The notes: generated by a model from the sequence alone, not told the origin. 64,000 nt of DNA from Trichoplax sp. H2 (GCA_003344405.1 NOWV01000140.1:1-64000), one strand, 5' to 3'. Positions 1,861 through 58,462 are shown, counted from the stretch's first letter. Numbers and translations: made by a program.

Positions 1861-4800
1861 ATGGTTGCCTTAGCGATGGAAGACATTCGAGCCCGTATTG
1901 AGACTTTAGACGATAACGAATTAAGGCGAGAATTTAAAAATTTGGGTATAGATATAGGCCCCATTACTGCTACTACCAAAGCAACTTTTATCGGCTTATT
2001 GGCTAAAAAATTGCATCGATTAAATGGAGGTGAAGTTCCGCCCGACAACGATCAAGACACGGATGTTAAGGTAACATACTGTGCTATAATCTACCATATC
2101 CTATCATTCACTTGCTATCAGAACCATCTATTTTCGATACAGTCGTCCTACCATGTTATAATTTGATTATCATCGGTTCATGACCATGACAATTGATGTA
2201 CGTTTACATTGAAGCAACAATTGTTTTGATACCTTCAGGCCGTTTCAAATAACTCTATCAACAGCTCTGCCGTTTGCCGTAAGAGCAATTCTGATCAGAA
2301 GCCATCGATTTACTACGGAGTTTGGTTAGGTGATGATCAGCAATCAACCGAGTCTGTACCCACGACTCCACTAGTTTTCGATCGAAAGAGTGATTTAGAA
2401 AAGTACTTGAAAGGTCATAAAACTGCTAGGTTTAGAACTTTCAAGAGTAAAAACGACGCAGAATGTTATTCTTTATCGACATCGCAATATGTAGTCAACT
2501 CCTCGCTCAATGGCAGCAGTCTCGATACTGAACCCCCACAACAGTACCATGGTCCATCTCGGACGATCATTAGTCACTTGCAACGTGCTGCTAGGTGTGG
2601 CTTGCTAGAACAGTATTCTGATCTAGTGGAGCAAAATCCTCGATGTTTACTTACTGCAGGTTAGAAAGGAATATTAATAGACATTTTAACTGTAAATTTT
2701 AAATTTTATCAAAGCCGTTCATAGTAATGTGTATCATTTACTGATGAAAAAATTGATAACGAGTAATTACTTTATACGTGCAACTGACTATTCCATCAAT
2801 CCCAACTCATACCATGGCTAGTAATACAGTACTTCTGCAGGGACACGATCGTTTCCTAGTCACTGAAATGATTCCCATCCATATTATAAAATTGTTACGT
2901 AAATTGTACTGCTTAGGAAAAATGGATGCATCCCTTACTGTGACTAGTGTCTGCAATTTTTGTCTATGTGAAATCCGAGTTCAATTATTTTAAAGTTTAA
3001 AGTTACTATTACGTGTCTTATGTTATGAAATGGATTCTTTTTATGGGCACTAGTACATATCTTGCTTATACTTATACTTGGTGTTTATTGATGGAATAGC
3101 AAAGTACATACAATTTGTTGATGGGATGAGTACATTATGTCAACATGTTATAGATTTGTCATTGTTTTTATTGAGATACAGCGATTGATATATAAAGGTT
3201 AACTAAAACTACAAGTTGTGATACCTATAGTATAATGTACCATAATAAGTGATATGTTGGTAATAATGGCAGCTTCAGCATACTTGCAACTTAGCATTTG
3301 ATCAATCCAAGCTCATACCATGGCTAGTAATATAGTGCTACTGCAGCAACGCTCTAGTTTACTACTGACTGAAGAGATTCTCATGCGTATTATAAAATAG
3401 TTGGACAATGGTAGTACTTAGGAAAATGCATTGATCGTTTATAGCCGCTGTATGCAATTTTATCCATATGTAAACCTAGTTGAAGTATTTTCAAAGTTAT
3501 AACTAGCCCCTCAGGTTATAAAATGGATTCTTTTCAATAGGTAGTTAATGATGGACTACAAAGGTACAAACAGTAGATTGATGGATGAATACTTTACGTC
3601 AACACATCTACAGATTTGTAATTGTGTATAGTAACTCCAAGTATGAGATACTGCGATTGATGACATGCTATTCTAAAGCTAGATTAGGTTAATGTTTACG
3701 AATGATCAGATGATATGATCGCGTGCGATTTTGTATGAGTAAACAATACGAGTTTTCTAAATAACTCGTTTTATTCATTTTTTGGTTAGTCTTTACGATG
3801 ATCAGATGACACGGTAGCGTGCAGTTAGTATGAGTCAACAAAACCGAGCTAAATAACTCGATTTATTCGTTTTTTCTTGTAGTTGAAACCCCGGTTATTC
3901 TCCAAGAAGGCTTACGTTATAATGCAATGCACTTTGGATCACATTATAATCAGCCTGAAATCTGCCAATATGTTATTGATAAATGTAAAGATTTGCAATT
4001 TTGGAAAAAGTTATATCCCAACGATGATTCTGAACAGCTGGGTCAAAATTGCATCAACATAGCTCTGGATCGTTACTTGAATACACCGGACAAAATGGTT
4101 ATAAATCATACTATCTAATCTTTATAGCAGATGCTTTAAGGATGCTTACTTTAATGGCATTCGTTTTGCTTGTTTAGTGTAGAATTCTAATAAAAAAAAT
4201 CTTATTACTATTCTCGGATTTAGCTGGCGGAGACACCGCTACATTTTGCTTGCAAGTTTGGTTTCACTGAGGTGGTTAAGAATCTACTCCATGAACCTGC
4301 AACCTTGAGAAATTGTAAAAATAAACACGGCAAGCTACCATTCGACGTAAGCCATTTTATAAAGTAAACTTTCAAACTTACTACACTAAGTGCACATCAA
4401 GTCCCTTCACTCTAAGAATTACGTATCGTGAAAAAAGTACCATTACCATAGGCATGGGTTCTCCAAGTAGAACGTATTGTAGCGTATTATTTGCGCCCAA
4501 CTGATGCCACTGCAATAGTCTCGTATTAATAATGTTATGAGTTCACTAATTAATTATAGTCTCTTTTTAAGTACACAAGCAGAAGTTGCATAAATCCTTA
4601 TGGCTTATTCAGTACTTTCTTATTCAACTATTGTGTATGCCTATTTTTATGATTTGCTTTCCACGCATTTTGATATGGGTTCTGTATAGATTATCATTTG
4701 AGCAATCATATTCCTTTCTGATTTTTCTACACAGCTTATATGTACCCGATACAACAATGAAGATAAACAAGAAGTTAAAGAATCGATAGAAAATTTATTT

Positions 4801-23485: not shown

Positions 23486-24860
23486 CATCCAATCAATACA
23501 GCACTATAGAAATCATGGCAAGTCACATCCACTCAAATACAGTACTATAGAAATCACGGGAAGAACATGCAAGTTACTACGGTAATTTGCGAAATTCATC
23601 AAATGCTGTCAAAATGCAATTATAAGTACAGTATGTATATTTATATATACATCTATATATATATACTGTATATTTGGTCATCCACTCAATACAGTACTAT
23701 AGACATCATGGGAAGAACATACAAGTCACATCCACTCAAATACAGTACTATAGAAATCACGGGAAGAACATGCAAGTTACTACGGTAATTTACGAAATTC
23801 ATCAAATACTGTCAAAATGCAATTATAAGTACAGTATGTATATTTATATACATGTATATATATATATTTGGTCATCCACTCAATACAGTACTATAGAAAT
23901 CATGGCAAGAACATGCAAGTTACTACGGTAATTTGCGAAATTCATCAAATACTGTCAAAATGCAATTATAAGTACAGTATGTATAATTATATATATATAT
24001 ATGTATATATTTGGTCATCCACTCAATACAGTACTATAGAAATCATGGCAAGAACATGCAAGTCACATCCACTCAAATACAGTACTATAGAAATCACGGG
24101 AAGAACATGCAGCTACTACGGTAATTCGCGAAGTTCATCAAATACTATCAAAATGCAATTATAAGTACAGTATGTATATTTATATACATATATATGTATA
24201 TATATATACTTTGTCATCCACTCAATACAGCACTATAGTAATCATGGGAAGAACAGGCAAGTTACATCCACTCAAATGTAGTACTATAGAAATCACAGGA
24301 AGGACATGCAAGTTACTACCGTAATTAGCGAAATTCATCGAATAGTGTCAAAATGTAATTATAAGTACTGTACAAGTGGACTGTACAGTATATATATTTA
24401 TACATATTATATATATATACTTGGTCATCCACTCTTTACAGTCCTATAGAAATCACGGGAAGAACATGTAAGTTACCTCGGTAATTTGCGAAATCCATCA
24501 ATTAGTATTAAAATGCAACCGTAAGTACAGTATATATGTTATATATACTTGGCCATCCACTCAAATACAGTGCTATAGAAATCACGGGAAGAACATGCAA
24601 GTTATTACGGTAATTTGCGAAATTCATCAAATACTGTCAAAATGCAATTATAAGTACAGTATGTGCATTTATATATATATATACTTGGCTATCCACTCAA
24701 ATACAGTACTATAGAAATCACGGGAAGAACATACAAGTTACCACGGCAATTTGTGAAATTCATCAAACAGCGTCAAAATGCAATCATAATACAGTACTAT
24801 AGAAATCATGGCCATCCACACAATACAGTACTATATAAATCACGTCAACAAGTTACATAG
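23486..24860. repeat. Minisatellite/satellite array, ~6-7 units of ~150-230 bp with nested ~40-45 bp subrepeats and a (TA)n spacer
   Basis: Recurrent CATCCACTCAA(A)TACAGTACTATAGAAATCA(C/T)GG(G/C)AAGAACATGCAAGTTACTACGGTAATTTGCGAAATTCATCAAATACTGTCAAAATGCAATTATAAGTACAGTA followed by a variable TA tract. Confidence 0.95.
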
Positions 24861-25121
24861 CGTATTTTGATATTTTAATTAATATAATATGAGATTAGTA
24901 AATAAGTGTTACGTAAATATCTGATATATAGTACATTACAAAATAAGTTAAAATGCAGATCATATTACACCTGATAGCCTTCGTATTATATTCGAAACAT
25001 TCTTTCAGGATATAGTAAGTACGCAACGGATTCAAATTGAACTCCGGTAATCGATTAAAAATTAATGACTATTTATTCATAAGCGACTGAAAGCACTGAT
25101 ATTATCTCTGCATTATTTTAC

Positions 25122-25630
25122 CTCTAAAATCTTTATTTTCGTTTTCACGTTCAACAACGACTTTTTCACGAAGCTCTGTTATATTAGTCAATTTAATACT
25201 TGCTAATATGAGTCATGACTAATCTAAACTATAAATTTAGATATTGACCTTGTAAATTGTTGCGATATAATTAAATAATACTGGATGTGACTAGTTTTTC
25301 ATTAACATGTTTTTTCTGCTATTTCGCCCTTTTACAGATCGTATGGTCTAGTCATAAATATTGATAGGTGACACCTGTGAAGGACTTCTCTCCTTCCAAT
25401 AATTTAGCATGCTGGCAGATATGGGTAAATAAATATTTGAATTTTCATATTGTTGTCTAAGATATTCAATATCGCTATCAGAAAGATCTAAATCCTTTAC
25501 TAATCGAATCCATCCATCTCCAATAGTCAATTATAACAACTAAGCATTTTTATAACCATATTTTTCGAATGCTCTTTAATTGAATTAAAATTTGAACAGA
25601 TATATCACTTGAGGTTGAATTTTTCCTCTA
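25122..25630 (-). pseudogene. Relic death-domain exon plus 54-nt acidic linker exon, paralogous to exons 3-4 of the adjacent Roco gene
   Basis: KCLVVIID[frameshift]IGDGWIRLVKDLDLSDSDIEYL...MLMKN*SHPVLFNYIATI aligns to exon-3 KCYSVIKNKIADGWFQLARYLGLS...MLLQNQSNSLLSNYVAEIL. It has in-frame stops. A downstream AG/GT-bounded exon 25122-25175 reads ELREKVVVERENENKDFR (phase 1-1). Confidence 0.7.
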
Positions 25631-25860
25631 CAGGACATTCTTTGCAAGATTATTTTATTACACTAATGGGTGCTAGAATCTTTGATAAGCTGAAACATCT
25701 ATGTAGCTTTTGGCAACTTAGTATGCTACTTGTTAATAACACCCTTTATCAAAATAACTATACAGCGTACGTATGTCATATATTATATATAGTCGGATGA
25801 TATAGTTATCATTTGGTTATAAGATTTCTAACTAAATAATTTTAGACAAAATTCATGTAA

Positions 25861-28800
25861 TTAACTATGCATGGCTACTTGAGATCCCTCACTTGCATTT
25901 GCATAATCTTTTATTTTTGCTTCGATTTGATCTGCCAAAGTATTGATATTCATCTCGCGTATTACCGAAACTACTTTAAAAATATCAGGTTTAGAACCAG
26001 CCTTTTCTTTCCACAACAATAGAGCTCGAATCGTCTTTTCGTAAGGAGTATGAAACTCAGGATTCAATCTAATTTCATCTATTTCTTGGATCGTTAAGCC
26101 CAATAACATTTCCAAATGGAATAATCTATCTTGTTTAAGTTTACCAGCTATGATATTGAAGCATAAGTCAAACATTCCTAAGTTAAAATAAAGTTGATAA
26201 CATTAAGAAATTTTGCTCTTCAACGATTCAAGTTTGTAATATGATCTAAAATAAATGAAACATTAGCCATAATGTTTCAACAATTTCATTTCATGATGAT
26301 TTTAACTTTAACTCACAAGGTAGACTGTAACGCAATGGTTATTTTTGTTGTAGCTAATACTGTCTATTAGTATACATAGTTTCATAATTTATTGCAATAA
26401 CTCGCTTTAAATATAGTTAATCAAATGACTAGAAACAGTGTCTTTTTAGCCATCCTTTTTGGCTGGAAAATTATGACATATTATTTTACATGTATATTGC
26501 AGTTACTATTAAAAGAAAAAGCAGTGTAATATATTCTCAGTTAATTTTTAAAAATACCAGTGAATATATTACCTTGTCTGCTAGATGTTAGTGTCGTTTG
26601 ATGCTCTTCTTGGGATTGTTGTGATTGATCTTGATTATGAAAAATATCATTAACTAAATGCTTTCAATATTCATGATAATAATTTTGAATAAATAGAAGC
26701 TACGCGATCAAAATTTGATCTGACGTTCGCCAATAACTTATCTTTGTACAGTGAATTGTTTCAGTTAATCAATAATAGAACTATCATCTGCCATTTTGGG
26801 GCTAATTAGTCTTGTTCTAGCTTCATATATACAATTATACATTATTTACTGTGGGATTTGCTTATTAAAACAACTAGAATTTAAGATATACGAGTATACT
26901 GTGAAATAAAGAATGGGTATACCATACACATTTAATGGCTATTTATGATCGGAAACCCAAAGATTTAATATAGATGCTATTTAACATAAGTTTACGTTGC
27001 TATGATTACATATTTTGTAAGTATGAAATCTTTTTAAAACCTAAAATTTAAATCTTCATAGACATTTTATGTAATTAAAGTAATTTTATGAAAGAAATTC
27101 TTCTATTTAGGCGCTATTATATTATAAACTCGTTTGCAGTATAAAGAATTTAAAAATTAAGATAAATAAAACGAATTAATTTTAACTCGAAACTTTATCC
27201 TACCTGCTAATTTCTCCTGCTCAAAAATCTGCCACTCACGTACTGATTTCGATTGAAAGTAGATACAACACGCTGAACACTTGATAGCATCCGTCTTGCC
27301 GATTAAATGAGTAATCACTTTTGTTAACTTTTTACAAGCAGAGCACTTTACGTAAAATCGATATTTAGAAGATTTCAACTTTGGCATTCTGTCACTGACC
27401 ACCTCTTTTAGCTTTTTCTTTATCATTATATGCGGTTTAATGTCGTAAATAAAACGTTTAACATTTTCCGCAACATCCTTGATTAAATCTTCCGCCGGGA
27501 TCTTATAGCAAAATTGCAGGCCAATATAACAATCTATTTTCTTGATAATAATCTCACATGGATAATCTACTAAGCGATATTTTGCACATCGATGATAAAT
27601 TTCTACTTGCGGATTGCTCCATATTTTTAAACATGCGGATAAATGGCAATGAAATATTCCCATCGGTATGTAAGACACTGAATCATATCCAATATATAAC
27701 CAATCTGATTGGTAATAATCTGCCAGCTCTAGCTCAGTCGATGAACGTAGTAAATACGGTACAAAGTATTGACGTTCAGCCGTATTTCTATCATCGCAAT
27801 TTTCACTCTCAATCTTACAGATGATGTGATAACTTTCCATTAATTGTAAAATAAACTCTTTCTCAGTTTTATTTAATTTAAATTCAGCTGTGGCGTAATT
27901 TAAACATAATTCTGGCATTTTACCAGTCTTATAAACCATTTCAAAGCAATCCTGTATTCCAGAATTCATAAATTTGCTTGTTTTATCACCAATTTTAATA
28001 ATTGATTGAAATATTCTGAGTAACCAGTCAAGATTGGTTACAATCATTCCATCTAATCCTTTCTTCTTACAAAATACGATTTCGCCTATATCACGTAAAT
28101 AGAGTAGCATACTACGTAATGTTGCATCGTCTTCATACAATCCGCAGTCTGTAGCTAGCTGTTTGATTTCATCAAAGGTCATAATGTTACGTATCCTACG
28201 TGCAATATCACCGAAAGGAGATTCCGATATAGCTGCACCAGCTTTCCTAGATTTAAAGTCGGTGGATGTATGTAATATTGATGCTAGAATATACCATCGA
28301 ATAGGAATCGATTGTCGCATAAATTTTCGATTGGTGGCAAATTGTTTGATTAGCTCATGGAGATCTCGATTAGTGTTTTGACGTCGCTCAATGGCTGTTT
28401 GGGTATTATCTTCGCAATTGCAGTGAAATATGATGCCAGAACTGCATATATTATATTTATAGTCTGGCATAGCTTCGGTTAATGATTTTGTAAATGTATG
28501 AAATTTTCGTTTGCGCTCCTCCTCATCTATTATCTGATCACCGTGTGATGCAATCAAAATCACAACTGGTAAATTATATTCTATTTCTATTCCGTTATGA
28601 GTTACGTTAACTTTATCTTGACCGTCATAACTGCCAATAATCGATGTAAGCCATTCTTGCATGGCCTGTCGATAAGTCATATTAATGGGTTTGTTATCTC
28701 GATCGATAATAGCATCATCAATATCGCGTAAGATATTAAATACTAAGATATAAAGACTATTTCCAGATAGAAATGGACGATGAGCCACATAGTAGATAGC

Positions 28801-31800
28801 CTGACCTCCCAAATCGGTCAATTTTCCATAGCGATCATCGGTGTCGCCTTCAATTTTGCCCTTTAAACCGGTCAGTGTTCGCATAAATTCTTCATAGATT
28901 ACAATCTTGTCACCTGGCTTTGGCATTGAATCTCTCGTTGGCTCTATATCATTATCGGGAATAGCTGTAGATGAATTTAGATTGATATTTTTCGACATGC
29001 GATTTTTAACTAATTCCATTTTTGGCTCTTTTGCCGTAAATGTAACCATGTGGCTTCCATCTTCCTCTATTTTCCGCATGCTTTGGCAATTAATGACGGT
29101 CTCTTCATTATCGATTAGAATATCTGTTTGGTCTAATAAATAAGTTGAATTTTCTTCATCTTGAACATTCGAGTTATTAATATTCATTGTATTTTTTAAC
29201 TGTTCGATTACTATCAAGACCTTTTTATGTAATATCATTCGAAAATCAGCTTCTGTCTTATCAAACATATTAAATATGATCAGATTTGACAATTTCTTAA
29301 CTTCGTCCGCAATAATAGTTTCGCTAGTAAAAGTGATATATCCATTATTTATGAATGCACTTATAATAGATGTTTTACCAACATTTTCAGGACCAGCAAT
29401 AACAATTTTGGTAAAATCATTGCGACACTTTCCGATTTTCAACGCCTTGTCATAAGCCGATAAATATTCTTTATTATCTATAGCTAGCGATAAAAAGATG
29501 TTGGCAGAATTATGAATTAGATAAGCTTGAGAAATACTCTGCTATTAGCCAGTATCAATTAACATTGTAAATTTAATTCTTAAGCTATTTCTAGCGAGTT
29601 ATTTTACATAACATTGCCAATATTGCAATACATTATCGTAGGATTAGTATATAATATCTTCATTATCTTACTTTTAGAATCTTCATCATTTTCTCCATCA
29701 AAATTTGCAATGATGTTTTCAAGACTAAGATCTATTTTAATGAATCCATAATGAACAAGGTTATTATTACGACTTATACGAATTAGAAATTAAAATATTT
29801 ACCTAGTAGAATTTCCGCAACGTAATTGGATAATAGTGAATTTGATTGATTTTGAAGTAACATTTCATATAGAATATCTGCTGTTTCTTTCCTTTTTAGA
29901 CGGTAGAGACTGGCTATTAATGTTGAAAGGGAATACTGTGAAAGAATTCTCTCCTGCAAATAATTTAGGTTTTGAACGGAAATAGCCAAAAGGGATTGAT
30001 GACTTGAATTTTCGTCCTGTCGGTCAAGATTCCCAGTATCATCAACTGAAAGGCCTAAATACCTTGCTAATTGAAACCATCCATCTGCAATTTTATTTTT
30101 AATGACGGAATAACATTTGTCTAATGGATAAATAAAATTAGCTTCTAAATATTAGATAACGGCCAAATGAATAAACCTACATAGTTTATTGAATTAGGAT
30201 TCCCTTAGCAAAATTGCTTATAAAAACCATTCATATACTTTTATAACTAGTCGCACTAATTTTTACGGTGTGAAGATAAAAAAAATTGACAGCAACAATA
30301 ATGTATACTAATATTGAAAGGCTATTAACATTGTAAGTAGCCTAGTAGAACTAACCAACAAATTCCTTTATTGCTTTATCTTCTTCATTTTTCATGCTTA
30401 CGGAACTTGCACCACTTGTTGCTCTATATTCGTTATATTCTGCGCCTACAGTATACGTACAATATTAGAACAAACTTAAGTAACATTTGCTTACTATAAT
30501 AGTTTACTCTAATATTTTTTAACTAAAAATTAATGAAATTGTAGCATAATTATCAAAATTAGCAAATACACTAGTGGATACCAATACGAAAGGATCATCC
30601 TATGGATGGGAAGGACTTTGATAACACAAAGTTACTGTAATATCTCTCTTATTTGAATAAATGATTGTTTAATGTACTAATAATGCCTAATGCAACATTT
30701 TATATATGTACAGTATATGTTGAATTCTTTGCATAATAATTAAACTAAGAACCAACCAATAAAACTATCGCTCTTTAATTACTGAAACACTTTGCCAATC
30801 AATTAATATGGATACTCTGCGCAATATTATTGTTATATTCATGTTATAGTGTTTACTGCTGATGTAATAACTAACATTAGTCTTAATTGTTAAGATTTAG
30901 ATATGACTGCTTATTTAATGTAATTATCGATATTTAGTAACTTATAATAAATATGAGTACGTAATAAAAAACAGTATTTAAGGCTGTGCAAGCTAAGCAC
31001 GAGAGAGAGTTATTACGAAGAGTTGTAGATTAGATCGGATCTTGTTACTCGTTGGTAAGATATCGCTATTAATTTAGTTTTGTTCAATTACTCGTTGGTA
31101 ACTTCTATTTTATAACTAATAAATTGTATATAGCCAAATGTAGATTCTGTTTTTATTATTTATTACCAGATCCCAACAATTATAAAATGTAAAGAGCTCT
31201 TAAAACGATCGATCATGTTTTTATTTTTAAGCCTGCGTATATATAATTAAGTAAATAGATCTGGATGGAAGATTATCTTGTTGACAACTAGAAAAGAAGT
31301 AGTGCAATCAATGCCATACTGGTACGCAATCTTACAATATATGTGGTTTTTGTTAATTCTTTTTTTGTCTTGCATACTGAGTTATATTTTTACATATTAA
31401 ATCATTTTCGTTGTCTATGCACAAAAACACTTTATGAAGGTATTGGATAGCGGACAAATTACGATTTTGCATACAAATACAGAAATTACCTTCTGATGTT
31501 GATGTAGAAAGATTGATAATGAGTGACTGATTGATTTTGTCATTTTGTAAAGGAAGGTGAATCATTTTTGATGTTTGTGGTATAGCAGCGGCCTTTCTGT
31601 TTTTTTGTTTTTGATTATTACATTGAGTAATTTTTTCTTTAGCCCTGGCAATTTGAGGGTGACTTTTTCCATAAAGATTGCTTAGGCTAGTGATAGATTT
31701 ATTATAGAATAAGATTGCTTGATCATAATTAGATTTTCGATAATGGACATGTGCTTGATTTCGAAAGGAAAGCGCTGTATTAGGATGATTGTTACCTAGG

Positions 31801-32822
31801 GTTTTCAAGTAGACTTGCGATGCCTTGTCATACATAGATAGCGCCTCATCGTATTTCTTTTGCTTATCATAGACGAACCCAATATTGTTATACGTTGTAG
31901 CAATACTTGGATGATTTTCATCAAGCTGTGACTTTTTAATCTCTAGTGATTTGTTATACATTGATAGAGCATCATCATACTTGCTTTGATTCAAATAGAC
32001 ACTTGCAATGTTGCCATATGTTGTAGCAATACTTGGATGACAGTCGCCAAGTTGTTTTAGTTCAATCTCCAGCGATTTGTTATACATTGATATAGCATCA
32101 TTATACTTGCCTTGATGATCATAGATTTGCCCAGTGTTACTATATGTTGTAGCAACACTTGGATGATTATCACCAAGTTTTTCTAGTTGAACTTCTAGTG
32201 CTTTGCTATTCATTGATAGAGCATCATCATACTTGCCTTGCTTAATATAAATATTTGCAATGTTACCATATAATGCAGCAGTATCTGGATGCTTGGCGTC
32301 AATTTTCAGGTTAATCTCCAACGATTTGAGATACATGTCCAAAGCCTTATCATATTTACCTTGGTCAAAGTAGGCTACGCCAATTTTACAATATGACTCG
32401 CTGACATTAACATGCTCTTTTTCTGGAAATTCTAATTTCATTTCAAGCGATTTGTTATAATCACTCAAAGCGCCAATCAGATCACCTTGTAATCGTTTAA
32501 TATCCCCCTGGTTATCTAAGCATTGAGAAATTCTCTTTTGATCTTTTATTTCCTTGGCTAATTTCTCTGCTTTTCCTCTCCATTTGTTTGCTTCCATTAG
32601 TTCACTTTTTTCCCGAAAAGAATTAGCCATATCAAGATAAATATCACATTCAAGTCGAACATGATCCTGGCTAATTTTCGGTATAGATTCAATTTGAATT
32701 GCAGCCTGTTGATAATAAGTTAATGCGAGCTTATAATTGCCTTTCTTATGACATTTTCGACCACTTTCGTGTTTAAATTGAATTTCCTTGAAGCTAGTCG
32801 ATTTGGAAGTCCAAATGCCCAT
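25861..32822 (-). CDS. Roco-family protein: TPR array - death domain - Roc GTPase - COR - CxxC/CxxC - death domain (7 exons, ~1492 aa)
   Basis: Exons on the minus strand: 32822-31490, 30445-30356, 30120-29803, 29731-29672, 29483-27204, 26653-26573, 26177-25861. All are GT-AG, in frame and phase 1. P-loop GPENVGKTS, G3 DLGGQAIY, Roc-type G4 ASHGD. COR hallmarks IPIRW, LLYLRDIGEIVF, VTNLDWL, YFVPYLL, IPMGIFH. Death-like W..LARYLGLS and LGLTIQEIDEI...LLLWKEK. 42-aa TPRs HPSIATTYGNIASVY..QGKYDDALSMYNKSLEI. Confidence 0.8.
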
Positions 32823-33659
32823 ATTACACTTTTCAGCAACAACAAAGCAGGTAGTTTAAGAAAATAGTTACAAATTCTTCGCTTGCTACTAGCTTCCAAT
32901 TTTGATATTTGTACGAAAATTAATATTATAGAGATATTATACCATCTGAAATGGATATTTCTTCCGCATTCGATCAAGACTTCAACGTCTATTTCAGTTA
33001 ATAACCTACACCAATCCTCAAAATTAGGTACGCCTTCGTTCGTTAACGGTCATTAATTATTCGTCAATTATTCGTCAACTATTCTTTTACAATTAATAGA
33101 GACAAAATAAACTAAATTGCCCAGACCCTCTTATCAACTCTTCTATTTATTCTCTTTTCTACTTTAATAATGTAAGGAATTAGTGATTATAATAATAATT
33201 GAAAATGATCATTACCATAATACTGGCACTGAAATAAATGAATCGCTTCGCATAAGATAAATAGACGATCAACAAAGGTAAACAAAAGGAGATCGTTATC
33301 ATATAATATAATATAATTCATTTCTTTCATGCAAATAATGGATAAATTAATTTGCATACTTGACAGACTTTCGTTGCAAATTACTACTGCGCTCTACTCA
33401 AATTTTATGGATCGCCAGCAGCTTTTAAGTACAGTATTTCCCATCGTTGCCTTGTAGCAATGCCAATTAAGACTATTTCATTATTGATTTTCTTGATCGC
33501 AAGTCAACTTGTTTGATTCGAGTTCATGCTTTCAGATTTGTAAAAGAATAAAGAAATAAAGTGTGTTAAAATAAACTTAGAGGATTATTTTCTCCATTAC
33601 AGTAAGACTGAAATGTCTATTCGCATAGAAAATAACGGTATGAGTCTTGCAAAGTACGG

Positions 33660-34690
33660 TATCTTAGGGTTAATGACTGATTGATTTATGGTATCTTGTT
33701 GTAAAGGGTGATGAATGATTTTGGAGGCTTGTGGTATAGCCGCAGCCTTCTCAATTTCTTATAGTTGATGGTGACATTGAACAATTTGTTTTTCATCTTT
33801 GACAATTTGAGGGTGATTTTCTCCATAGAGATGGCGAAGGCTATTGATGGACTTTTTGATAGAACGAGATTGCTTGACGATAATTAGATTGCTGATAGTT
33901 GACTTGAGCTTGATTTCGAAAGGAAAGTGCCGTATCAGGATGATTTTCGCCTAGTGTTGCTAAGCGAATTCGAACAGATTTCTTATACATGGATAGTGCA
34001 TCGTTGAAGTTGTCTAGCTTATAATATGTAAGTCCAATGTTACATGTTGTAGCAATTCTTGGATGATTATCACCAAGTTGCGCTTGTTCAACTTTCAGCG
34101 ATTCCTTGTATACTGATAGTGCGTCATCATATTTGCCTAGATAATAATAAACTAGCCCAATTCCATTGTATACTGTTGCAATACTTGGATGATTATTGCC
34201 AAGATGGGCTAATTTAATTTTGAGTGATTTGTTATACATAGATAGGGCCTCATCATACTTGCCTTGCTTACTATAAACAAGTCCGATGTTGCCATATAAT
34301 GTAGCAATTTCGAGATGATCATCACCAAGTTGTTCTAGTTTAATCTGCAATAATTTATTGTAACTATTAGAGCGTCATCATATTTGCCTTGTTCCTCATA
34401 GCCACTTCGTCTAGCAGTTTCTTACTTAATATGTCAGCTATTTCTCTCCGAAGACTAGCTTTCATCAATTCATTTTCTTTTAGATAACAGTTAGCCATGT
34501 CGAAATAAAGATCATATTCAAGATAAAGACGACTCTCGCTGCTCTCTTGTATCGATTGGATTTGAGTTGCAGCTTGTTGATAATAAAATAATGTGCGTTC
34601 ATAATAGCTTTTCTTATCAAATTTTACGCCCGTTTCGTATACAGATTTAATTTCGTCAAGGGTAGTCGATTTGATACTTTGATCGTCCAT
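33660..34690 (-). pseudogene. Frameshifted paralogue of the TPR exon of the Roco gene
   Basis: N-terminus (YYQQAATQIQSI...LEYDLYFDMAN) matches 32822 onward (YYQQAAIQIESI...LECDIYLDMAN). Internal deletion and frameshifts at ~34350-34400, another frameshift at ~33855. It continues LRHLYGENHPQI...QL*EIEKAAAIPQASKIIHHPLQQDTINQS versus intact LSNLYGKSHPQI...KAAAIPQTSKMIHLPLQNDKINQS. Confidence 0.85.
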
Positions 34691-36166
34691 ATTTCACATT
34701 GGAGCTGTACTGAAGTGTCACGAAGCAGCCTTTGTGAACAGACCAAAACTTTACTATCTACTCTAAGTTGATCTTAGTTTAACTCTCAAAGACCTACAAC
34801 GGAGGAAACTAACCTATTGCTGTATTTACTGCTAGCTAGAGATAAATGGTAGCGTTTACAGTCAAGGTATTTATTGAGCCAGATAACGAAGTAGCGCAGT
34901 GTTCTTTACTACAACCTGATTGAGATTCTCTTTAAAAGTAAGATATCCAGCCTTTTATATAGTTCTATGATTTTACACAGTGCACACTTGTGCCAATGAT
35001 CACAGCACATGAAGCGAACTCCGTAACATGAAGATATGTAGTTTTGGAAAAAGTAGTCATAAATTCTCGATTGGATATAGTTGGTAAAATTGATAGTTAT
35101 CGGAATGAGTAATGAAATAGATGTATAGTATCATGAATGGATGTCTTATATTTTAGAGCAAGATTATAAAAGTCAATCGGCGAGATTGGATAAGCTTGCA
35201 TTAGTTAACCTTCATCAGTCTTTCGTAAATAATACTACTAAAATAAATAGAGGTGAAGTAAATTAAACTGCACAAGTGTCCTTATCAAGACTTCTTTCTT
35301 TCTATCTGCTGACTAATATCAATAATTAATTGAAGTCATGCATGATCACAACTAAAAGTCAGATAATAGCCTAATATTGCCATTCAAATGTTTTTGGTTT
35401 AGAATAAAATGAAGATTGGCGTTAACATAAGTAAAATATTATCGTTACAATGGCATCCATGCATATTAATAACAATGATAAACCAAATAGAGATCTCGCT
35501 CAATTTGTATACTGTAGCTATAAATTAGCACGGTGTTCGACTCAAATTGAGAAGGAGCACCTGTTGCTTTCGACTACTTGCCGTTGTCACCTTGTAAGAA
35601 TAGTAAGCTAAACTATTTCATCAGTTGCTTTCATGGCGGATAGTCTACTTGATAAATTACATACTGCGTTGATCTATTGCTCATGTTTTCACACTTGTAT
35701 AGGAGTGAAGAGATACAGTAAAATGATTAAAGAGATTTAATAGATTTATAAAATTATTTTCTGCTTTACATCAAGGTTGCAAAGTCTATATTCTAATTAG
35801 ATAGGAATTACTTGAATTTTATTTTAATGATCCATGAAATTGCCAATAAAATTTTTTCAGCTTACAGGGAAGTAACGAAAAATTGTTTATATTAGAAAGA
35901 AATTCGTACATACATTTCACTGTTAACAAATACTTAAATAGTGTATTGAGGTCAATGGCTCTTGATTAAAAGAACACATCCCAAACTACTATCAAGTTAT
36001 TTTTATTTATTACTTACTAATACTGCAAACCATAGCTAACCGAAAATCGTAATAAAATTACCGAAATCACTCTAACAATAAAATGAATATATTCTATTCC
36101 ACTAACTACCAATACTATCAAACATATAATATAGGTGTAATTTCACTTAAAATGATTTTATCGAAA

Positions 36167-50533: not shown

Positions 50534-53500
50534 CTACTTAATATTTGAATATTTTCTTAAATAAAAGACGTGCTCCTTTGTATAGCATTTCGGTAAAGCC
50601 CATTTGGAAATTTTTTCCCGTACTTCTGATAGACAATTTTTTCCTTCTTCGTCCGGCCAAAATTTACACAGATGAGATATAATTAAAGCGCATTCGATTG
50701 GATCAGGGAAATAATTCATCTGCATAAGGCAATGCGTAATTTTATTCGTTAGTGATATATTTGGAGCTTGATACAATCATGCAATAAAACAATTAATAGG
50801 GTATTGGTCTATAATTTGATCATGACTAATGAAACTACTCAAATAAAATATCTCTTTTACCTTAATGATTTTAGTTATGGAATCAAATTGTTCCATAATA
50901 TTTTGTTCTTCTGACTTTAAGTATTCTAATGTCACAGATGGATAAAAGTATTTGATATCTGATGTCACATCAAATTCAGGATCCATTCTTTCTTTTTGTG
51001 GTATGATGACCGGGTCATGCTGGATCTTACACATTTCTTGAAGGCCTTCATGATAATTTGCAGATTTTTGATCATTCAATTCCTCTACTAATATATCTAC
51101 GGCAGTACCGCTACACTCACTTAGCTTATTAGCATCTTCAACAGCATTTTTGTTAGCTGTACCATCTGATCCCTCAGGCGAATCAAGATTCTTGATACCA
51201 TCTTGAGCTTCCAAATTGTCGTCAACTTGAGACAATAAATGTGCATTATTTATCCCTTCTTTACTGGTACTTGCACGTATATCAATGTCCGATGCAATTG
51301 AATTCCTACTTGAATCCTCCTCTTCATTGATACTCTGCTTGATCTCAAACGTTCGTTTTGTTTTACCTGCTTGCTTAATGGAATCCAATCCTTGAGCACT
51401 TTCATGCCGTTCAACAGCGATCGCAACCTGCTCTAGTTTAAATTGGCAGCTTAAATAATTTACACGAGACTCGACGAGCAACGCTGCCATTGCATCTGAT
51501 AATATTCGAATAATTTCTCCCATCGTTAAAATATTATTACTGTTAACATCTAATTGTTGCGATACTGCTAAAGCAACTGGCTGCTCTCCTATTTTATTAT
51601 TGCTGTCCTGCAGCAAGCTCTGAATTGCAACATCTTGTCGATTATCTACCTTATTACTGCTATTATTTTCCACATTCTGAGAAATACCAGATGGCATCCT
51701 ATATTCTGTTGTATCGTCTTGTGTAACAGGAAATAAACTCGTATTATATTGTACGCTTGATTTAGGTAGTGCCCACCACAACCAAAGCAGTATGTAATAG
51801 TAATAATATTGAAGTGGTACACAATCTTCGCTATTTTGCTCAATCAAGTATACGGTTATGTAATTCTGAAAAGAATGAGGACCACTAGGAAAAAACGATA
51901 GCAAAGCATTTCCCATGATATCATAAGCTCCATAAGATAAACAAGTTTTAACTATATTCTGAATAGAGCTGAGTGCCCCAACACCATCTGATGCTAGTAG
52001 ACAAAGTAAACAAATTGATAGCTGATACGAAGTAGATAAAAGTACCTGCAAGATAAAACAAAACGAGAGATTAAAGATTTAAATTTAAGACATTCCGCCA
52101 GGTTAAAATCCAAACTAATGTCAGAACTTGCAAAAAGAATTACTTACGTTAGTTAAGTTTCCTAATTTCCAATTCGAATTGCTTACGTGTTCAGATAAAA
52201 CAATTTGATACTCTTTAACTTTATCCATATGAAAGTCAACATGTGACATCCACTTTTTCAAAATTGATACGAAGATAGGTCCATTGATCAACTTTTTAGT
52301 ACTTATTCGAGCATAAATGCTTTTGTCACTCTTCTTAAAATAGTTCAAGGCTGCTAAATCATGTTTTAAATAAATGATTTACATCAGAGTGAGAGGTACA
52401 GGTAGCAAATACTAAACATTATATTATTATAATTCTCACCTTTAGCAATAGGTGGTGTATCATCGTCAGTTACAGCGTCCTTACTACTTGATGAATGTAG
52501 TAATTCGTGATCCAATTGCTTTACTTCTAGGTCTAGAGTACTAACTAACTCATACCATACAATAGCATTTAACTGGAAGGGCTACAATGAAATAAATAAT
52601 AAAAATCCAAGAAATCTGAGAAAGAATGTTATTAAAACAAATATCGATGAATTAATAATTCCATTATATGTTTGTTAACCGTTAGCTCGTTCGTTGTTGT
52701 ACATAATGATAACGCATCATTAATTGAAAGGACTTGCAATGACGAATCGATACACGTCTTAATCCAAGCAGTGGATATTGGTATTCCACCCATCAGTCGA
52801 GCAACTTTAACAGCGGCTATAGCAGCAGTATGCTCTTTACTTCTGCTTAAAGCACTAACGGCTTCCGAATGTAAACCTATGGCTAAATAACTAGCCGTAA
52901 CACAAATGCATAACACTAAATTAAATTTGTATATTTATGCAAAAGTTATTTATATTGAGATATGGCAAATGTGTTACCAACCATTTAGCAGCTTGCTCAA
53001 AACGTGATTCTTTCTCTAGACTTCTGGCCCAGGCTAAATAAATATCTGATATTACCGGATCATTAGAAGATAATCGACACTGGGCAAGGCCTATCGCTTC
53101 TCTAATTGAAGGAAAGAAAATTAATGACGTCCTGTCTCTGAAGAATCTATAAAAAATGACTATCAAGCAGATGTTACACCAAATATTAAATTAACCTGTA
53201 CATTCCATTTTCTTTGAAGCAATCTACTGCTTGATGAGTTTCATGGCAAGCTAAATAATAGACCGCAGCTTTCTGTGGATAGCCATTACTCATGAGTTGA
53301 TTGGCATAATTCTTAGCAGTTTCTAGCCAAACATCGTAACCCCCTATGATAGAAAAACCATATCTCCGATCAGCTAAATAATTAAGTAGCAATTATTCGA
53401 TCATAATAATATTAAATTCTTATTTGCAACAAACTAATTCACCTGCAATGCTAATAGAAACGAGCCAATCCGTTAGTTGGCCGTTTTCAGTTGCAAAGTG

Positions 53501-56500: not shown

Positions 56501-58462
56501 CTGTTGTTCAGATGAATAGTAAGAAATGTTGAATACTGGTCTGGTATGACAATGATTCACTTGATCGTCAAAGACAGTATGCTTTGGCTTTTTATAATGT
56601 GTCAAGTCCCATAGCAACACATTGCCTCTAAAGAATTTGAAGCATTTAATTCCGTCATCAAACCCATTTTAAAGGTGTCATGCAAAGGTGCCAAATAATT
56701 TATCAAATATTTTGGTAAGGTTCAAATTTTGACAATAAGTACAATAAAAAGGCAAGCATTGTTACACTTACGTATGATAATTGGATACAATATGATTCAA
56801 GTTCCAAGGTAACCATAGCAGACTTATCCAGTTCTTTGCTTGCTTTTCTAAATCAACCGTCTTTGACCAATTGCGTGCGCCACCATTAATTTTGTTGGGC
56901 ATTTTAACAACTGTTATAACTTCTCTCTTATAAACATTCCATATCCGAAATAATCTATCTCTCGAAGCAGAGGCCAGTAATACGTCTACAGTGAGATGAA
57001 TAAAGTAGAGTATTTCATAATGTGTTATTAACTTCAATATCACTTGTTCATAATAAGGCAACCTTCCCTACACAGTCTACAACGATCTGAATTTTACCGT
57101 ACAATATAAAAAGTTACCTCGATTTGAGCCGGTTTCGAAATGATCTCCAACCACAGGGCACCAATTTAAGCAAGTGATTTGCCTTTGATGTCCTTTCAGT
57201 TCTAGCTTGTGGGAAATGTGCCCACTTTCGGCATTAATGTTAGCAACGATGATAGTTCCATCGTTGTAACCTAACGCAAAGTCGCTCTGATCGTGAGGTG
57301 ACAACTGAATACAGCTAATTGAGTCTTTTCTTAGTGAACCAATGATAAATCGTTGCGCCGCTAATTCCCAGCAAACAATATTACCTTTTTCATCACCTAT
57401 TAATTATAACATTAACCATTCGTTAGCACCCAAGCAGATGAAGCAAATAACAGGTAACTTAAGATGGTATCAGTCGAGTATGTAAGCCATCAAGGCTAGT
57501 TAATGCAGTTTGCTAAAGTTTCAATCTGACAACACTAGTTAGCTAATGAACAACAGCAATACATCCTAAGAATGGTGCTTTATTTGCAATCCTGTTAGTG
57601 AAGTAATCCGCGTTGATTTAATTGGCTGCAGAGCAAGTATGGTAGCTCAACTTGCACAAAGGGTAAAGGGCTTTGCCGTTGCAAAGAGTAAACTCTGACC
57701 CCATTGCCAATATGCGCTGAATAGCCAACTTAATTACGCTAATCATTTTCCTTACAAGAGTATTTCGATACCTGAAATGATCCATTTGCTGGTTGATTTT
57801 GAGACAGACAAGGATGTGATTTTAGCCTAATGAAAAATGATAAAATCCTTACGTTGATGCAGTGAACAATACTTTATTTATATTCAACGCTTGCAAGTAT
57901 TCGACTACCAGCCATGTACCGTTGTAACAACTAAAGGAGATTCCATGCAATGGAACGCCTGCTTAAGTGCATATAGTGTAATAAACATCAAATTGACTAT
58001 TTGTTATTGTGCAGAAATTCAGGCAATCCTTTTTTCATCGATGGTTATCCACTCGTTGAAGATAAGGCAGTCGTTGCAACTGCCCTATCTCGCTAGACTT
58101 TTGCATAAGTATACCTGATGTTTTTCATGTTTTGCAATAAAATGGCGTGATTCTATATCCCATAGAATAATTTTTTTGTCTTCTCCACCACTAACGCATA
58201 AACGCTGAGCACCATTTCGGCTAAGTTGCAAACAAGTAATACGACCAGTATGCAACGACATGATCCCAATCCACTGAAATTGAGCTGGTCCTAATCGATC
58301 ATCTCGTTGTGGAAGCCGATACAAATAAATATCGTTTCTACCTCCAAAAACATATATTCCGTTGTCCGTGCATTGGCTGACAGTAGTGCAATACCAATTT
58401 GCCGAAGCAGGTAGCATTCCTTCCTGAATTTTCCCATCGAATGTGTCCTCCTTGTTCTCCAT
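50534..58462 (-). CDS. GEMIN5: Gem-associated protein 5 (WD40 repeats plus TPR-like dimerisation region), multi-exon
   Basis: N-terminal [11 protein letters not shown]40 exons [46 protein letters not shown]...[55 protein letters not shown]. Helical region [10 protein letters not shown]...[39 protein letters not shown]. Terminal FPDPIEC exon ~50534-50719. ATG at 58460-58462. 3' end less certain. Confidence 0.9.

What the first reader, a model, noticed from the sequence alone, without database searches (positions are those of the whole stretch)
25861..32822. Hidden single gene: TPR-Death-Roc-COR-Death, an NLR-like architecture built on a Roco GTPase
Seen in sequence: four separately listed ORFs (489, 68, 761 and 104 aa) plus three tiny unlisted exons (90, 60 and 81 nt) join at canonical GT-AG sites without a stop into a 4479-nt CDS (~1492 aa). 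Established knowledge: Roc-COR is the GTPase/dimerisation module of LRRK2, DAPK1 and MFHAS1; death domains nucleate homotypic signalling complexes; 42-aa TPR arrays act as sensors in NB-ARC/NACHT-TPR proteins. No kinase domain is visible. Inference: a sensor (TPR) - switch (Roc-COR) - effector (death folds on both sides of the GTPase) receptor, working like an NLR in innate immunity or cell death. I recall that expanded Roco repertoires with TPR/death domains have been noted in placozoans, so the family may be known. This spliced architecture is likely split or missed by automated annotation and is functionally uncharacterised as far as I know.
Basis: partly seen in the sequence, partly recalled or inferred. 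Interest (0 to 1): 0.88.

Follow-up and report, generated by a model that had tools for sequence, protein, structure and literature searches.

The report
Placozoan TPR-Death-Roco GTPase gene
This is a real, expressed seven-exon Trichoplax gene for a kinase-less Roco GTPase flanked by TPR repeats and two death domains, but it is already in GenBank as one gene and belongs to a placozoan Roco expansion noted in 2014, so it is well described rather than new.

Summary
The gene is real. Spliced contigs from three studies confirm 5 of its 6 junctions. The exon-6 acceptor is 26629, not 26653, so the RNA-supported CDS is 4455 nt, 1484 aa, with all introns in phase 1.

Pfam and profile searches support TPR_12, Death, Roc, COR-A and a second Death domain, with no kinase.

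The gene is not hidden. The window is Trichoplax sp. H2, and GenBank RDD39303.1 ("Nephrocystin-3", 1524 aa) is a single model of the same seven exons. By inference, two of its splice sites disagree with the RNA.

The family is in print. Civiero et al. 2014 listed at least 17 T. adhaerens ROCO genes with TPR, death, CARD and AAA modules.

I also found four invariant cysteines after COR, and decayed TPR and death-domain relics flanking the gene.

NLR-like sensing remains inference: the protein has no NACHT or NB-ARC domain. Structure and complex jobs never ran.

The parts
32823..32997 (-). 5' UTR, at least this long
   Evidence: X4 record 20 runs unbroken from 31995 to 32997. An in-frame stop lies just upstream of the ATG, because the stop-to-stop ORF begins at 32855.
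31490..32822 (-). Exon 1 (1333 nt): start codon and TPR array. About 9 units of 42 aa, of which 6 are canonical, followed by a polar linker.
   Evidence: Pfam TPR_12 at 6.1e-78. 126-nt tandem period at 31890-32271. 42-aa rows. Donor 31490 confirmed by the joint 30444/31489 (cut +1) in X4 and X6.
30356..30445 (-). Exon 2 (90 nt): linker with no family hit
   Evidence: Joints on both sides in X4 and X6. No Pfam hit.
29803..30120 (-). Exon 3 (318 nt): first death domain (DD1)
   Evidence: Pfam Death at 1.8e-4, 22.0 bits, just under the cut-off of 22.6. blastp 3e-14 to P0004 residues 582-685, which Pfam calls Death at 30.5 bits. hhalign against the DD2 profile gives 97.6%, E 3e-12. In the ESM Atlas, 29 of 30 nearest named clusters are Death. 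Acceptor 30120 and donor 29803 are confirmed.
29672..29731 (-). Exon 4 (60 nt): acidic linker
   Evidence: Joints 29731/29803 and 29483/29672 in X4 and X6.
27204..29483 (-). Exon 5 (2280 nt): Roc GTPase, COR and a Cys4 motif in one exon
   Evidence: Pfam Roc 31.0 bits (cut-off 27) and COR-A 36.0 bits (cut-off 35.3). The family profile hits C. tepidum Roco 3dpu_A at 1e-16, M. barkeri Roco2 4wnr_A at 1.3e-13 and LRRK2 at about 1e-4. X4 record 19 covers the exon without any joint.
29371..29394 (-). Roc G1 / P-loop, GPENVGKT
   Evidence: Motif scan and alignment. Coordinates computed from exon-5 residues 30-37.
28837..29256 (-). Insert of about 140 aa inside Roc, between the beta2-like strand and G3. 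It is retained in mRNA.
   Evidence: C. tepidum Roco aligns to profile positions 5-75 and 201-242 with about 7 residues between. Insert length is 98-164 aa and mean pairwise identity 0.15, against 0.28-0.43 for the other segments measured. No Pfam or Atlas look-alike. No splice joint lies inside it.
28801..28815 (-). Roc G3, DLGGQ
28537..28548 (-). Roc G4, SHGD. The family form is [ST]HGD.
27748..28200 (-). COR-A
   Evidence: Pfam COR-A on residues 428-578 of exon 5. 17 of 19 family members match COR-A.
27268..27345 (-). CxxC...CxxC, a zinc-ribbon-like motif after COR
   Evidence: C713, C716, C735 and C738 are invariant in the 19-sequence alignment A3. Pfam zinc_ribbon_6 reaches only E 0.029, below its cut-off.
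26573..26629 (-).
   Evidence: Joints 26629/27204 and 26176/26572 (cut +1) in X4, X6 and X11.
25861..26177 (-). Exon 7 (317 nt including the stop): second death domain (DD2)
   Evidence: Pfam Death at 5e-5, 23.8 bits, above the cut-off of 22.6. The best solved-structure sequences are Fas DD (0.016), FADD and ankyrin-3 DD.
25574..25860 (-). 3' UTR, with AATAAA at 25654-25659
   Evidence: RNA contigs end at 25574 (X4) and 25638 (X6). The sequence was read.
33660..34690 (-). Decayed relic of a paralogous TPR first exon, not part of the transcript
   Evidence: tblastn hits to paralogues. Three frames are needed and there are several stops. 126-nt period at 34048-34278.
25351..25530 (-). Isolated 60-aa DD1-like relic downstream of the gene
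   Evidence: 42-46% identical to DD1. Stops appear when it is extended to 25249. blastp to the DD1 region of P0003 and P0004.

Best explanation
The locus is one expressed, seven-exon gene of Trichoplax sp. H2. It encodes a 1484-aa, kinase-less Roco-family GTPase.

The layout is: N-terminal 42-aa TPR array, death domain 1, Roc G-domain, COR, Cys4 zinc-ribbon-like motif, death domain 2. The Roc domain is split by a variable insert of about 140 aa. Each module sits on its own exon, and all introns are in phase 1.

Shown here: the gene model, its transcription and splicing, the domain identities, and intact G1, G3 and G4 motifs.

Inferred: it works as a nucleotide-gated scaffold. The TPR array binds a partner or ligand, in the position that LRRs hold in simple Roco proteins. 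Roc-COR cycles between GTP and GDP states that change self-association, as in C. tepidum Roco and LRRK2. Because there is no kinase, the output is the exposure or clustering of the two death domains, which recruit other death-fold proteins for a cell-death or immune-type signal.

It belongs to a placozoan-specific Roco expansion that evolves by exon and module swapping and by birth and death of copies.

Confidence in identity and gene model is about 0.95. Confidence in the sensor-switch-death-domain mechanism is about 0.35-0.4.
For: Gene model:
- The joined frame is open.
Single contigs link exons 1-5 and exons 5-7.
- The same seven exons appear in GenBank RDD39303.1.

Domains:
- TPR_12 at 6e-78, Roc 31.0 bits (cut-off 27), COR-A 36.0 bits (cut-off 35.3) and Death 23.8 bits (cut-off 22.6) for DD2.
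- Death scores 35.3 bits on the whole protein.
- DD1 is tied to Death.
- The family profile hits solved Roco proteins: C. tepidum 1e-16, M. barkeri 1.3e-13, LRRK2 about 1e-4.
- G1 is GPENVGKT, G3 is DLGGQ and G4 is SHGD. G1 and G4 are conserved across the paralogues aligned; G3 varies (Q, H or N at its last position, DFAGH in some).

Expansion:
- 395 representative proteins at E <= 1e-3 and 45 at E <= 1e-30.
- All 5 looked up at E <= 1e-32 are Trichoplax. The next named ones are Owenia and Branchiostoma at about 24-27% identity.

Modularity:
- All introns are in phase 1.
- The nearest Roc-COR relative, P0005, carries Death, NB-ARC and APAF1_C instead of TPR and DD. Support is SH-aLRT 99 on 23 rows.
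- Decayed TPR and DD relics flank the gene.

Mechanism background, from papers:
- DAPK1 has Roc-COR followed by a death domain that mediates its partner binding (PMC4917528, passages).
Against: - No functional or structural test was possible.
- Pfam's Roc model matches only its first 39 of 119 positions in this protein, because of the insert. GTPase competence is therefore unproven.
- DD1 alone scores just under Pfam's cut-off: 22.0 against 22.6.
- Nothing links the gene to infection or cell death.
- Civiero 2014 speculated on chemotaxis and phagocytosis instead.
- Kamm 2019's placozoan immunity survey does not mention Roc in its main text.
- Of the 18 coding differences shown between runs, 13 change the residue. 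The table was truncated, with 72 rows not shown. This could mean relaxed constraint rather than diversifying selection.
Confidence: 0.55

Rival explanations
1. The molecule is the same but the job is different. It would be a constitutive scaffold for trafficking, cytoskeleton, chemotaxis or phagocytosis, closer to DAPK1 or to LRRK and MFHAS1 cell biology. The kinesin-light-chain-type TPRs would bind cargo or motors and the death domains would act as general interaction modules. It would not be a pattern- or danger-sensing receptor.
For: - The TPRs are of the TPR_12 / kinesin-light-chain / NPHP3 type. TPR_NPHP3 scores 123.6 bits against a cut-off of 100.
- GenBank names paralogues 'Kinesin light chain'.
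- Civiero 2014 linked the placozoan Roco expansion to chemotaxis and phagocytosis.
- DAPK1's Roc-COR overlaps a cytoskeleton-binding region, and its death domain binds ERK, UNC5H2 and TSC2.
- The neighbouring genes are housekeeping: LEM-domain and Gemin5-like.
Against: - A lineage-specific expansion with swapped death, CARD and NB-ARC modules and pseudogene relics is more typical of conflict or immune gene families than of core trafficking genes.
- No orthologue was found outside placozoans.
Confidence: 0.3
2. The Roc domain is a pseudo-GTPase. The insert of about 140 aa between G1 and G3 would prevent a normal switch cycle, so Roc-COR would serve only as a static dimerisation or structural core for TPR and death-domain interactions.
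For: - Pfam Roc aligns to only 39 of its 119 positions.
- The G1-G3 distance is 193 aa here, and 133-217 aa in all but one of the paralogues whose motifs were matched (P0015: 77, an off-register DISGQ match). In C. tepidum Roco only about 7 residues separate the aligned blocks.
- Several paralogues have H in place of the G3 glutamine.
Against: - G1 and G4 are conserved across the paralogues aligned, a conserved threonine sits at the switch-I position in most of them, and this gene's own G3 (DLGGQ) is intact. Conservation of nucleotide-contacting motifs argues for nucleotide binding.
- The insert falls in what should be a surface hairpin and is the least conserved segment. That fits a tolerated loop.
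Confidence: 0.12
3. The locus is a decaying or non-functional paralogue whose open frame is incidental.
For: - Decayed TPR and DD fragments lie on both sides.
- 13 of the 18 coding differences shown are non-synonymous (truncated table).
- No close T. adhaerens protein model was found.
Against: - A 4455-nt frame is open across seven exons.
- It is correctly spliced in contigs from three studies.
- All catalytic and structural motifs are intact.
Confidence: 0.03

Closest known systems
Trichoplax ROCO expansion (Civiero et al. 2014, PMC4104024), for example TRIADDRAFT_61714 (P0002) and the H2 paralogues RDD40155.1 and RDD40336.1
   Same: The family and the architecture are the same. P0002 carries TPR_12, Death, Roc and COR-A and is 48% identical over the Roc-COR exon. 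The paper lists at least 17 T. adhaerens ROCO genes with CARD, death, TPR, LRR and AAA modules.
   Different: This is a distinct paralogue: no other protein exceeds 50% identity by BLASTP. It has fewer TPR units, with 4-6 TPR_12 stretches against 11 in P0002 and P0006. The passages I read do not mention the Roc insert or the Cys4 motif. I could not see the paper's Figure 1 or its supplements.
DAPK1, the third Roco group (Wauters 2019, PMC6337361; PMC4917528)
   Same: A repeat array, then Roc-COR, then a C-terminal death domain. There is no LRR. It is a metazoan protein with a cell-death context.
   Different: No kinase or calmodulin-binding region matched. It has TPRs where DAPK1 has ankyrin repeats. 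It has an extra death domain before Roc, an insert in Roc and a Cys4 motif. Sequence closeness to DAPK1 itself was not tested, and no DAPK1 chain appeared among the solved-structure hits.
Group-1 kinase-less Roco proteins: LRR-Roc-COR, such as C. tepidum Roco and MFHAS1, and the brown-algal ROCO candidate immune receptors (PMC11378527)
   Same: An N-terminal repeat sensor is followed by Roc-COR with no kinase. The best solved-structure matches are C. tepidum and M. barkeri Roco. An immune-receptor role has been proposed for the algal expansion, with phase-matched exons that shuffle.
   Different: The repeats are TPR rather than LRR. Death domains serve as the candidate output. The insert in Roc is absent from C. 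tepidum Roco.
Placozoan NB-ARC/NACHT-TPR 'NLR' and Apaf-1-like proteins (Kamm 2019, PMC6321704)
   Same: TPR repeats are combined with death-fold effector domains and a central NTPase switch. The families are expanded in a lineage-specific way: 3 NACHT and 39 NB-ARC genes. One Roc-COR paralogue, P0005, even carries NB-ARC and APAF1_C.
   Different: The switch here is a Ras-like Roc GTPase with COR, not a STAND ATPase. The TPRs are N-terminal instead of C-terminal. The resemblance is analogy, not membership.

Membership tests
Roco (Roc-COR GTPases) | A Roc G-domain followed directly by COR in one polypeptide | tested here: met
   Pfam Roc 31.0 bits (cut-off 27) and COR-A 36.0 bits (cut-off 35.3), both on exon 5. 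The family profile hits C. tepidum RocCOR 3dpu_A at 1e-16, M. barkeri Roco2 at 1.3e-13 and LRRK2 at about 1e-4. Of 19 family members, 15 match Roc and 17 match COR-A.
Roco (Roc-COR GTPases) | Intact guanine-nucleotide motifs G1, G3 and G4 | tested here: met
   GPENVGKT, DLGGQ and SHGD are present. G1 and G4 are conserved across the paralogues aligned; G3 is intact here but varies among them. The G-domain is interrupted by an insert of about 140 aa, so Pfam Roc aligns to only positions 1-39 of 119.
Roco (Roc-COR GTPases) | [quoted passage not shown] | tested here: inconclusive
   The segment is conserved among paralogues, with mean pairwise identity 0.40. It has no Pfam match and did not align to solved Roco chains. 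The fold and dimer jobs did not run.
Roco (Roc-COR GTPases) | GTP binding and hydrolysis, and nucleotide-dependent dimerisation | not testable with these tools
   This needs biochemistry.
Death domain (Pfam PF00531) | A profile match above the curated cut-off | tested here: met
   DD2 scores 23.8 bits against 22.6. The whole GenBank protein scores 35.3 bits. DD1 alone scores 22.0 bits, just under. DD1 is joined to the family by blastp to a Pfam-positive paralogue domain, by hhalign at 97.6% and E 3e-12 to the DD2 profile, and by 29 of 30 nearest Atlas clusters being Death.
Death domain (Pfam PF00531) | Six-helix death fold | not tested
NLR / STAND receptors | A central NACHT or NB-ARC STAND NTPase | tested here: not met
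   No NACHT or NB-ARC hit in any exon or in the whole protein. The only NTPase is Roc. It is not an NLR, and any likeness is functional analogy.
DAPK1 group of Roco proteins | An N-terminal Ser/Thr kinase with a calmodulin-regulated segment, plus ankyrin repeats | tested here: not met
   No kinase or ankyrin family appears. TPRs occupy that position.
DAPK1 group of Roco proteins | A death domain C-terminal to Roc-COR | tested here: met
   DD2 on exon 7 follows COR after a 19-aa linker.
Nephrocystin-3 (the GenBank product name) | Similarity beyond the TPR region | tested here: not met
   Only the TPR exon matches TPR_NPHP3: 123.6 bits against a cut-off of 100. The remaining 1040 or so residues match Death, Roc and COR. 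That NPHP3 lacks these domains is my recollection, not a call result.

The most novel reading that the evidence does not exclude
Placozoans lack LRR-type NLRs. They may use an expanded set of TPR-death-Roco proteins as a GTPase-based class of intracellular danger or microbe receptors that is not built on a STAND NTPase. In this reading, ligand capture by the variable TPR array flips the Roc-COR dimer switch and unmasks two death domains, which seed a death-fold signalling complex. The lineage-specific Roc insert and the Cys4 ribbon would be added regulatory handles. The sister position of a Death-NB-ARC-Roc-COR paralogue would then mark direct module exchange between the Roco and Apaf/NLR systems.
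Probability: 0.2. Interest if true: 0.7.

Novelty: new member of a known kind. Interest (0 to 1): 0.3.

Why it matters
For annotation, the public H2 model should be renamed from Nephrocystin-3. It should also be corrected at two splice sites, giving 1484 aa instead of 1524.

For biology, kinase-less Roco proteins whose only visible outputs are death domains are a simple setting for asking what a Roc-COR switch does by itself. The placozoan expansion, with TPR, DD, CARD and NB-ARC swapped around one conserved Roc-COR exon, is a candidate early-animal immune or cell-death receptor family. The published placozoan immunity survey did not cover it in its main text.

None of this is established here. 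The gene itself and the family were already public.

Tried and rejected
Structure and complex jobs:
It had not finished at any of 19 collection calls, the last being.
- Because no model existed, no fold search was possible.
- Complex prediction for two copies of COR plus the Cys4 region was never accepted.

Unavailable resources:
- No whole genome is held for this window, so paralogues could not be counted genome-wide and their exon phases could not be compared.

Weak or uninformative results:
- Single-sequence phmmer of exon 5 against solved structures gave only 4wnr_A at E 0.014. The family profile was needed.
- The first mixed death-domain alignment, A2, was too poorly aligned to use.
- The Roc insert has no Pfam match and no Atlas look-alike; the best score was 0.79, which is noise level.
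- An N-myristoylation-like start (MG..., pattern recalled) occurs in only 2 of 24 long paralogues. I rejected it as a family feature.

RNA details not used:
- An alternative joint 26820/27204 would end the protein before DD2. It rests on one contig in one run with 28 letters on its shorter side, which is too weak.
- A non-canonical joint 32363/34216 (GT..TT, one contig, shorter side 21 letters) is most likely an assembly chimera between TPR repeats.
- Stretches without RNA cover in X4 and X6, namely intron 1 and the downstream DD relic, are not evidence of absence.

Literature searches with no result:
- 'Trichoplax' plus 'Nephrocystin-3' found 0 papers.
- 'Trichoplax' plus 'ROCO' found 7 papers. 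Only Civiero 2014 and a 2024 paper that cites it describe placozoan Rocos.
Full report
**What is there.** Every border is GT-AG, and the joined 4479 nt translate into 1492 residues with one terminal stop.

**Organism and public annotation.** A search with the large exon returned a 100%-identical protein. It is RDD39303.1, "Nephrocystin-3 [Trichoplax sp. H2]", 1524 aa, with TPR, Death, Roc and COR-A Pfam hits on record.
- GenBank has 32 extra residues after exon 1.
- GenBank has 8 extra residues before exon 3.
- GenBank has 8 fewer residues at exon 6.

So the gene is not hidden in the H2 annotation. It is a single model with a misleading name.

The GenBank splice coordinates that I give (donor 31394, acceptor 30144) are inferred from that alignment and from reading. 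No tool reported them.

**RNA evidence.** I searched for runs and laid four on 24500-35500.

X1 covers exons and introns alike, with a 4635-nt piece over 25515-30147 and no joint. It behaves as DNA.

X4, X6 and X11 come from three studies. X11 is on record as RNA. They carry these GT-AG joints:

| Joint | Runs |
|---|---|
| 31490/30445 | X4, X6 |
| 30356/30120 | X4, X6 |
| 29803/29731 | X4, X6 |
| 29672/29483 | X4, X6 |
| 27204/26629 | X4, X6, X11 |
| 26573/26177 | X4, X6, X11 |

The exon-6 acceptor is 26629, as in GenBank, not 26653.

The RNA-supported CDS is 4455 nt, 1484 aa, with every intron in phase 1.

One 3522-nt contig (X4 record 19) links exon 5 through exons 4, 3 and 2 to exon 1. X6 record 21 links exons 5, 6 and 7. 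X4 record 20 extends the 5' UTR to 32997, past an in-frame stop. Contigs end at 25574 and 25638, near an AATAAA at 25654-25659.

No joint lies inside exon 5, so the whole 2280-nt exon is in the mRNA.

Two minor joints are too weak to use. The joint 26820/27204 rests on one contig and would truncate the protein before DD2. The non-canonical joint 32363/34216 is probably a repeat chimera.

**Domains.** Pfam results per exon:
- Exon 1: TPR_12 at 6e-78.
- Exon 3: Death at 1.8e-4, 22.0 bits against a cut-off of 22.6.
- Exon 5: Roc at 31.0 bits against 27, and COR-A at 36.0 bits against 35.3.
- Exon 7: Death at 23.8 bits against 22.6.
- Exons 2 and 6: nothing. Exon 4 (19 aa) was too short to scan.
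- No kinase, NACHT or NB-ARC in any exon.

On the whole GenBank protein, Death scores 35.3 bits.

The weaker first death domain has extra support:
- blastp to the Pfam-positive domain of paralogue P0004, at 3e-14.
- A profile-profile match to the DD2 family at 97.6%, E 3e-12.
- 29 of 30 nearest named Atlas clusters are Death.
- The best solved-structure sequence is the ankyrin-1 death domain, though only at E 0.39.

DD2's best solved relatives are the Fas, FADD and ankyrin-3 death domains, with Fas at 0.016.

The TPR array has a 126-nt DNA period. It has about nine 42-aa units, six of them canonical.

**Roco membership.** I built a profile of 19 Roc-COR-only relatives (A3). Its hits among solved structures were C. 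tepidum Roco at 1e-16, M. barkeri Roco2 at 1.3e-13 and LRRK2 at about 1e-4.

G1 (GPENVGKT), G3 (DLGGQ) and G4 (SHGD) are present. G1 and G4 are conserved in the paralogues; G3 varies among them.

1. **A Roc insert.** A segment lies between the beta2-like strand and G3. C. tepidum Roco has about 7 residues between the blocks that flank it. In A3 the insert is 98-164 aa long, and about 140 aa here. Its mean pairwise identity is 0.15, against 0.28-0.43 for the other segments. It has no Pfam or Atlas relative.
2. **Four invariant cysteines.** They form a CxxC...CxxC pattern after COR. Pfam zinc_ribbon_6 reaches only E 0.029 there.
3. **An unrecognised C-terminal half of COR.** It is conserved but matches no profile, so the dimerisation part is not verified.

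**Family and surroundings.**
- *Size and range.* Exhaustive phmmer found 395 representative proteins at E <= 1e-3 and 45 at E <= 1e-30. Of 10 looked up, the five with E <= 1e-32 are all Trichoplax. One has no name. The rest are Owenia and Branchiostoma at about 24-27% identity.
- *Possible orthologue.* No protein in any length class exceeds 50% identity by BLASTP to exon 5 apart from the H2 model itself. A T. adhaerens orthologue model is therefore absent from that collection.
- *Tree.* A quick ML tree used 23 rows, with the insert columns removed and one of 24 rows dropped for under 60% coverage. It places this exon as sister (SH-aLRT 99) to TRIADDRAFT_62071, which Pfam reads as Death, NB-ARC, APAF1_C, Roc and COR. 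That model could also be a merged gene prediction.
- *Relics.* A frameshifted, stop-ridden relic of a TPR first exon lies upstream at 33660-34690. A 60-aa DD1-like relic lies downstream at 25351-25530.
- *Neighbours.* Other neighbouring genes are ordinary: a LEM-domain gene and a Gemin5-like gene.

**Literature.**
- Civiero et al. 2014 (PMC4104024; passages and figure legends read) reported at least 17 ROCO genes in T. adhaerens. Their Roc-COR is surrounded by CARD, death, TPR, LRR and AAA domains. The authors speculated on chemotaxis and phagocytosis.
- A 2024 brown-alga paper repeats this and proposes algal ROCOs as immune receptors built by exon shuffling (PMC11378527, passages).
- Kamm et al. 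2019 (PMC6321704, passages) catalogued placozoan NACHT and NB-ARC proteins.
- Wauters 2019 (PMC6337361) and PMC4917528 supplied the Roco groups, COR-mediated dimerisation and the DAPK1 layout.
- The searches found no functional study of these placozoan proteins.

**Interpretation.**
- *Secure.* This is an expressed, kinase-less Roco with TPR and two death domains, and it belongs to a known placozoan expansion.
- *Most likely mechanism, by inference.* A TPR-gated Roc-COR switch controls the availability of the death domains.
- *Comparison with known families.* It works like an NLR only by analogy and fails the NLR membership test. It shares the repeat, Roc-COR, death-domain order with DAPK1 but lacks the kinase.
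- *Selection.* Of the 18 coding differences shown between runs, 13 are non-synonymous. With 72 rows hidden, this cannot separate diversifying selection from relaxed constraint.
- *Missing evidence.* Structure and complex predictions could not be obtained.

**Verdict.** The reading of the sequence was good, apart from one acceptor that is off by 24 nt. The gene and the family were already public, so interest is modest.

Noticed in passing
window 31394-31489 and 30121-30144 (GenBank RDD39303.1 model): Compared with the RNA contigs, the deposited protein carries 32 extra residues from reading into intron 1. It also carries 8 extra residues from an upstream exon-3 acceptor. The product name Nephrocystin-3 rests on the TPR exon alone.
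   Followed up: yes
window 33660-34690 (-): A decayed copy of a paralogous TPR first exon. It needs three frames, contains several stops, and has a 126-nt period at 34048-34278. The DNA-like run X1 shows indels here, at 33853 and 34037.
   Followed up: partly
window 25351-25530 (-): An isolated 60-aa fragment resembling the first death domain, 42-46% identical to DD1. It lies just beyond the gene's 3' end and runs into stops when extended.
   Followed up: partly
P0005 (TRIADDRAFT_62071, T. adhaerens): The nearest Roc-COR relative is modelled as Death, NB-ARC, APAF1_C, Roc and COR. That would put a STAND ATPase and a Roco GTPase in one protein. It could be a true fusion or two genes merged by the predictor.
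   Followed up: partly
window 23486-24844: A satellite-like tandem array with periods of about 51, 136-143, 199-203 and 337 nt, about 1 kb downstream of the gene. Depth in run X1 rises over 24500-24866.
   Followed up: no
window 30570-30973 (intron 1) and 26731-27000 (intron 5): Short RNA-library contigs lie inside introns: X11 in intron 1, and X4 and X6 in intron 5. They could be retained intron, pre-mRNA or DNA carry-over.
   Followed up: no
window 32802-32822 (N-terminus): The protein starts MG..., which fits a recalled N-myristoylation pattern. Only 2 of 24 long paralogues share it, so it is probably chance.
   Followed up: yes
window 1810-2163 (+), 50780-52078 (-), 58088-58684 (-): The neighbouring ORFs match LEM, the Gemin5 RBS domain and WD40. 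The Roco gene therefore sits among ordinary genes, not in an intact paralogue cluster.
   Followed up: partly
window 25861-32822, differences between runs: Of the 35 differences shown, 18 are coding (13 non-synonymous, 5 synonymous) and 17 non-coding. A further 72 rows were not shown, so no rate can be derived.
   Followed up: partly
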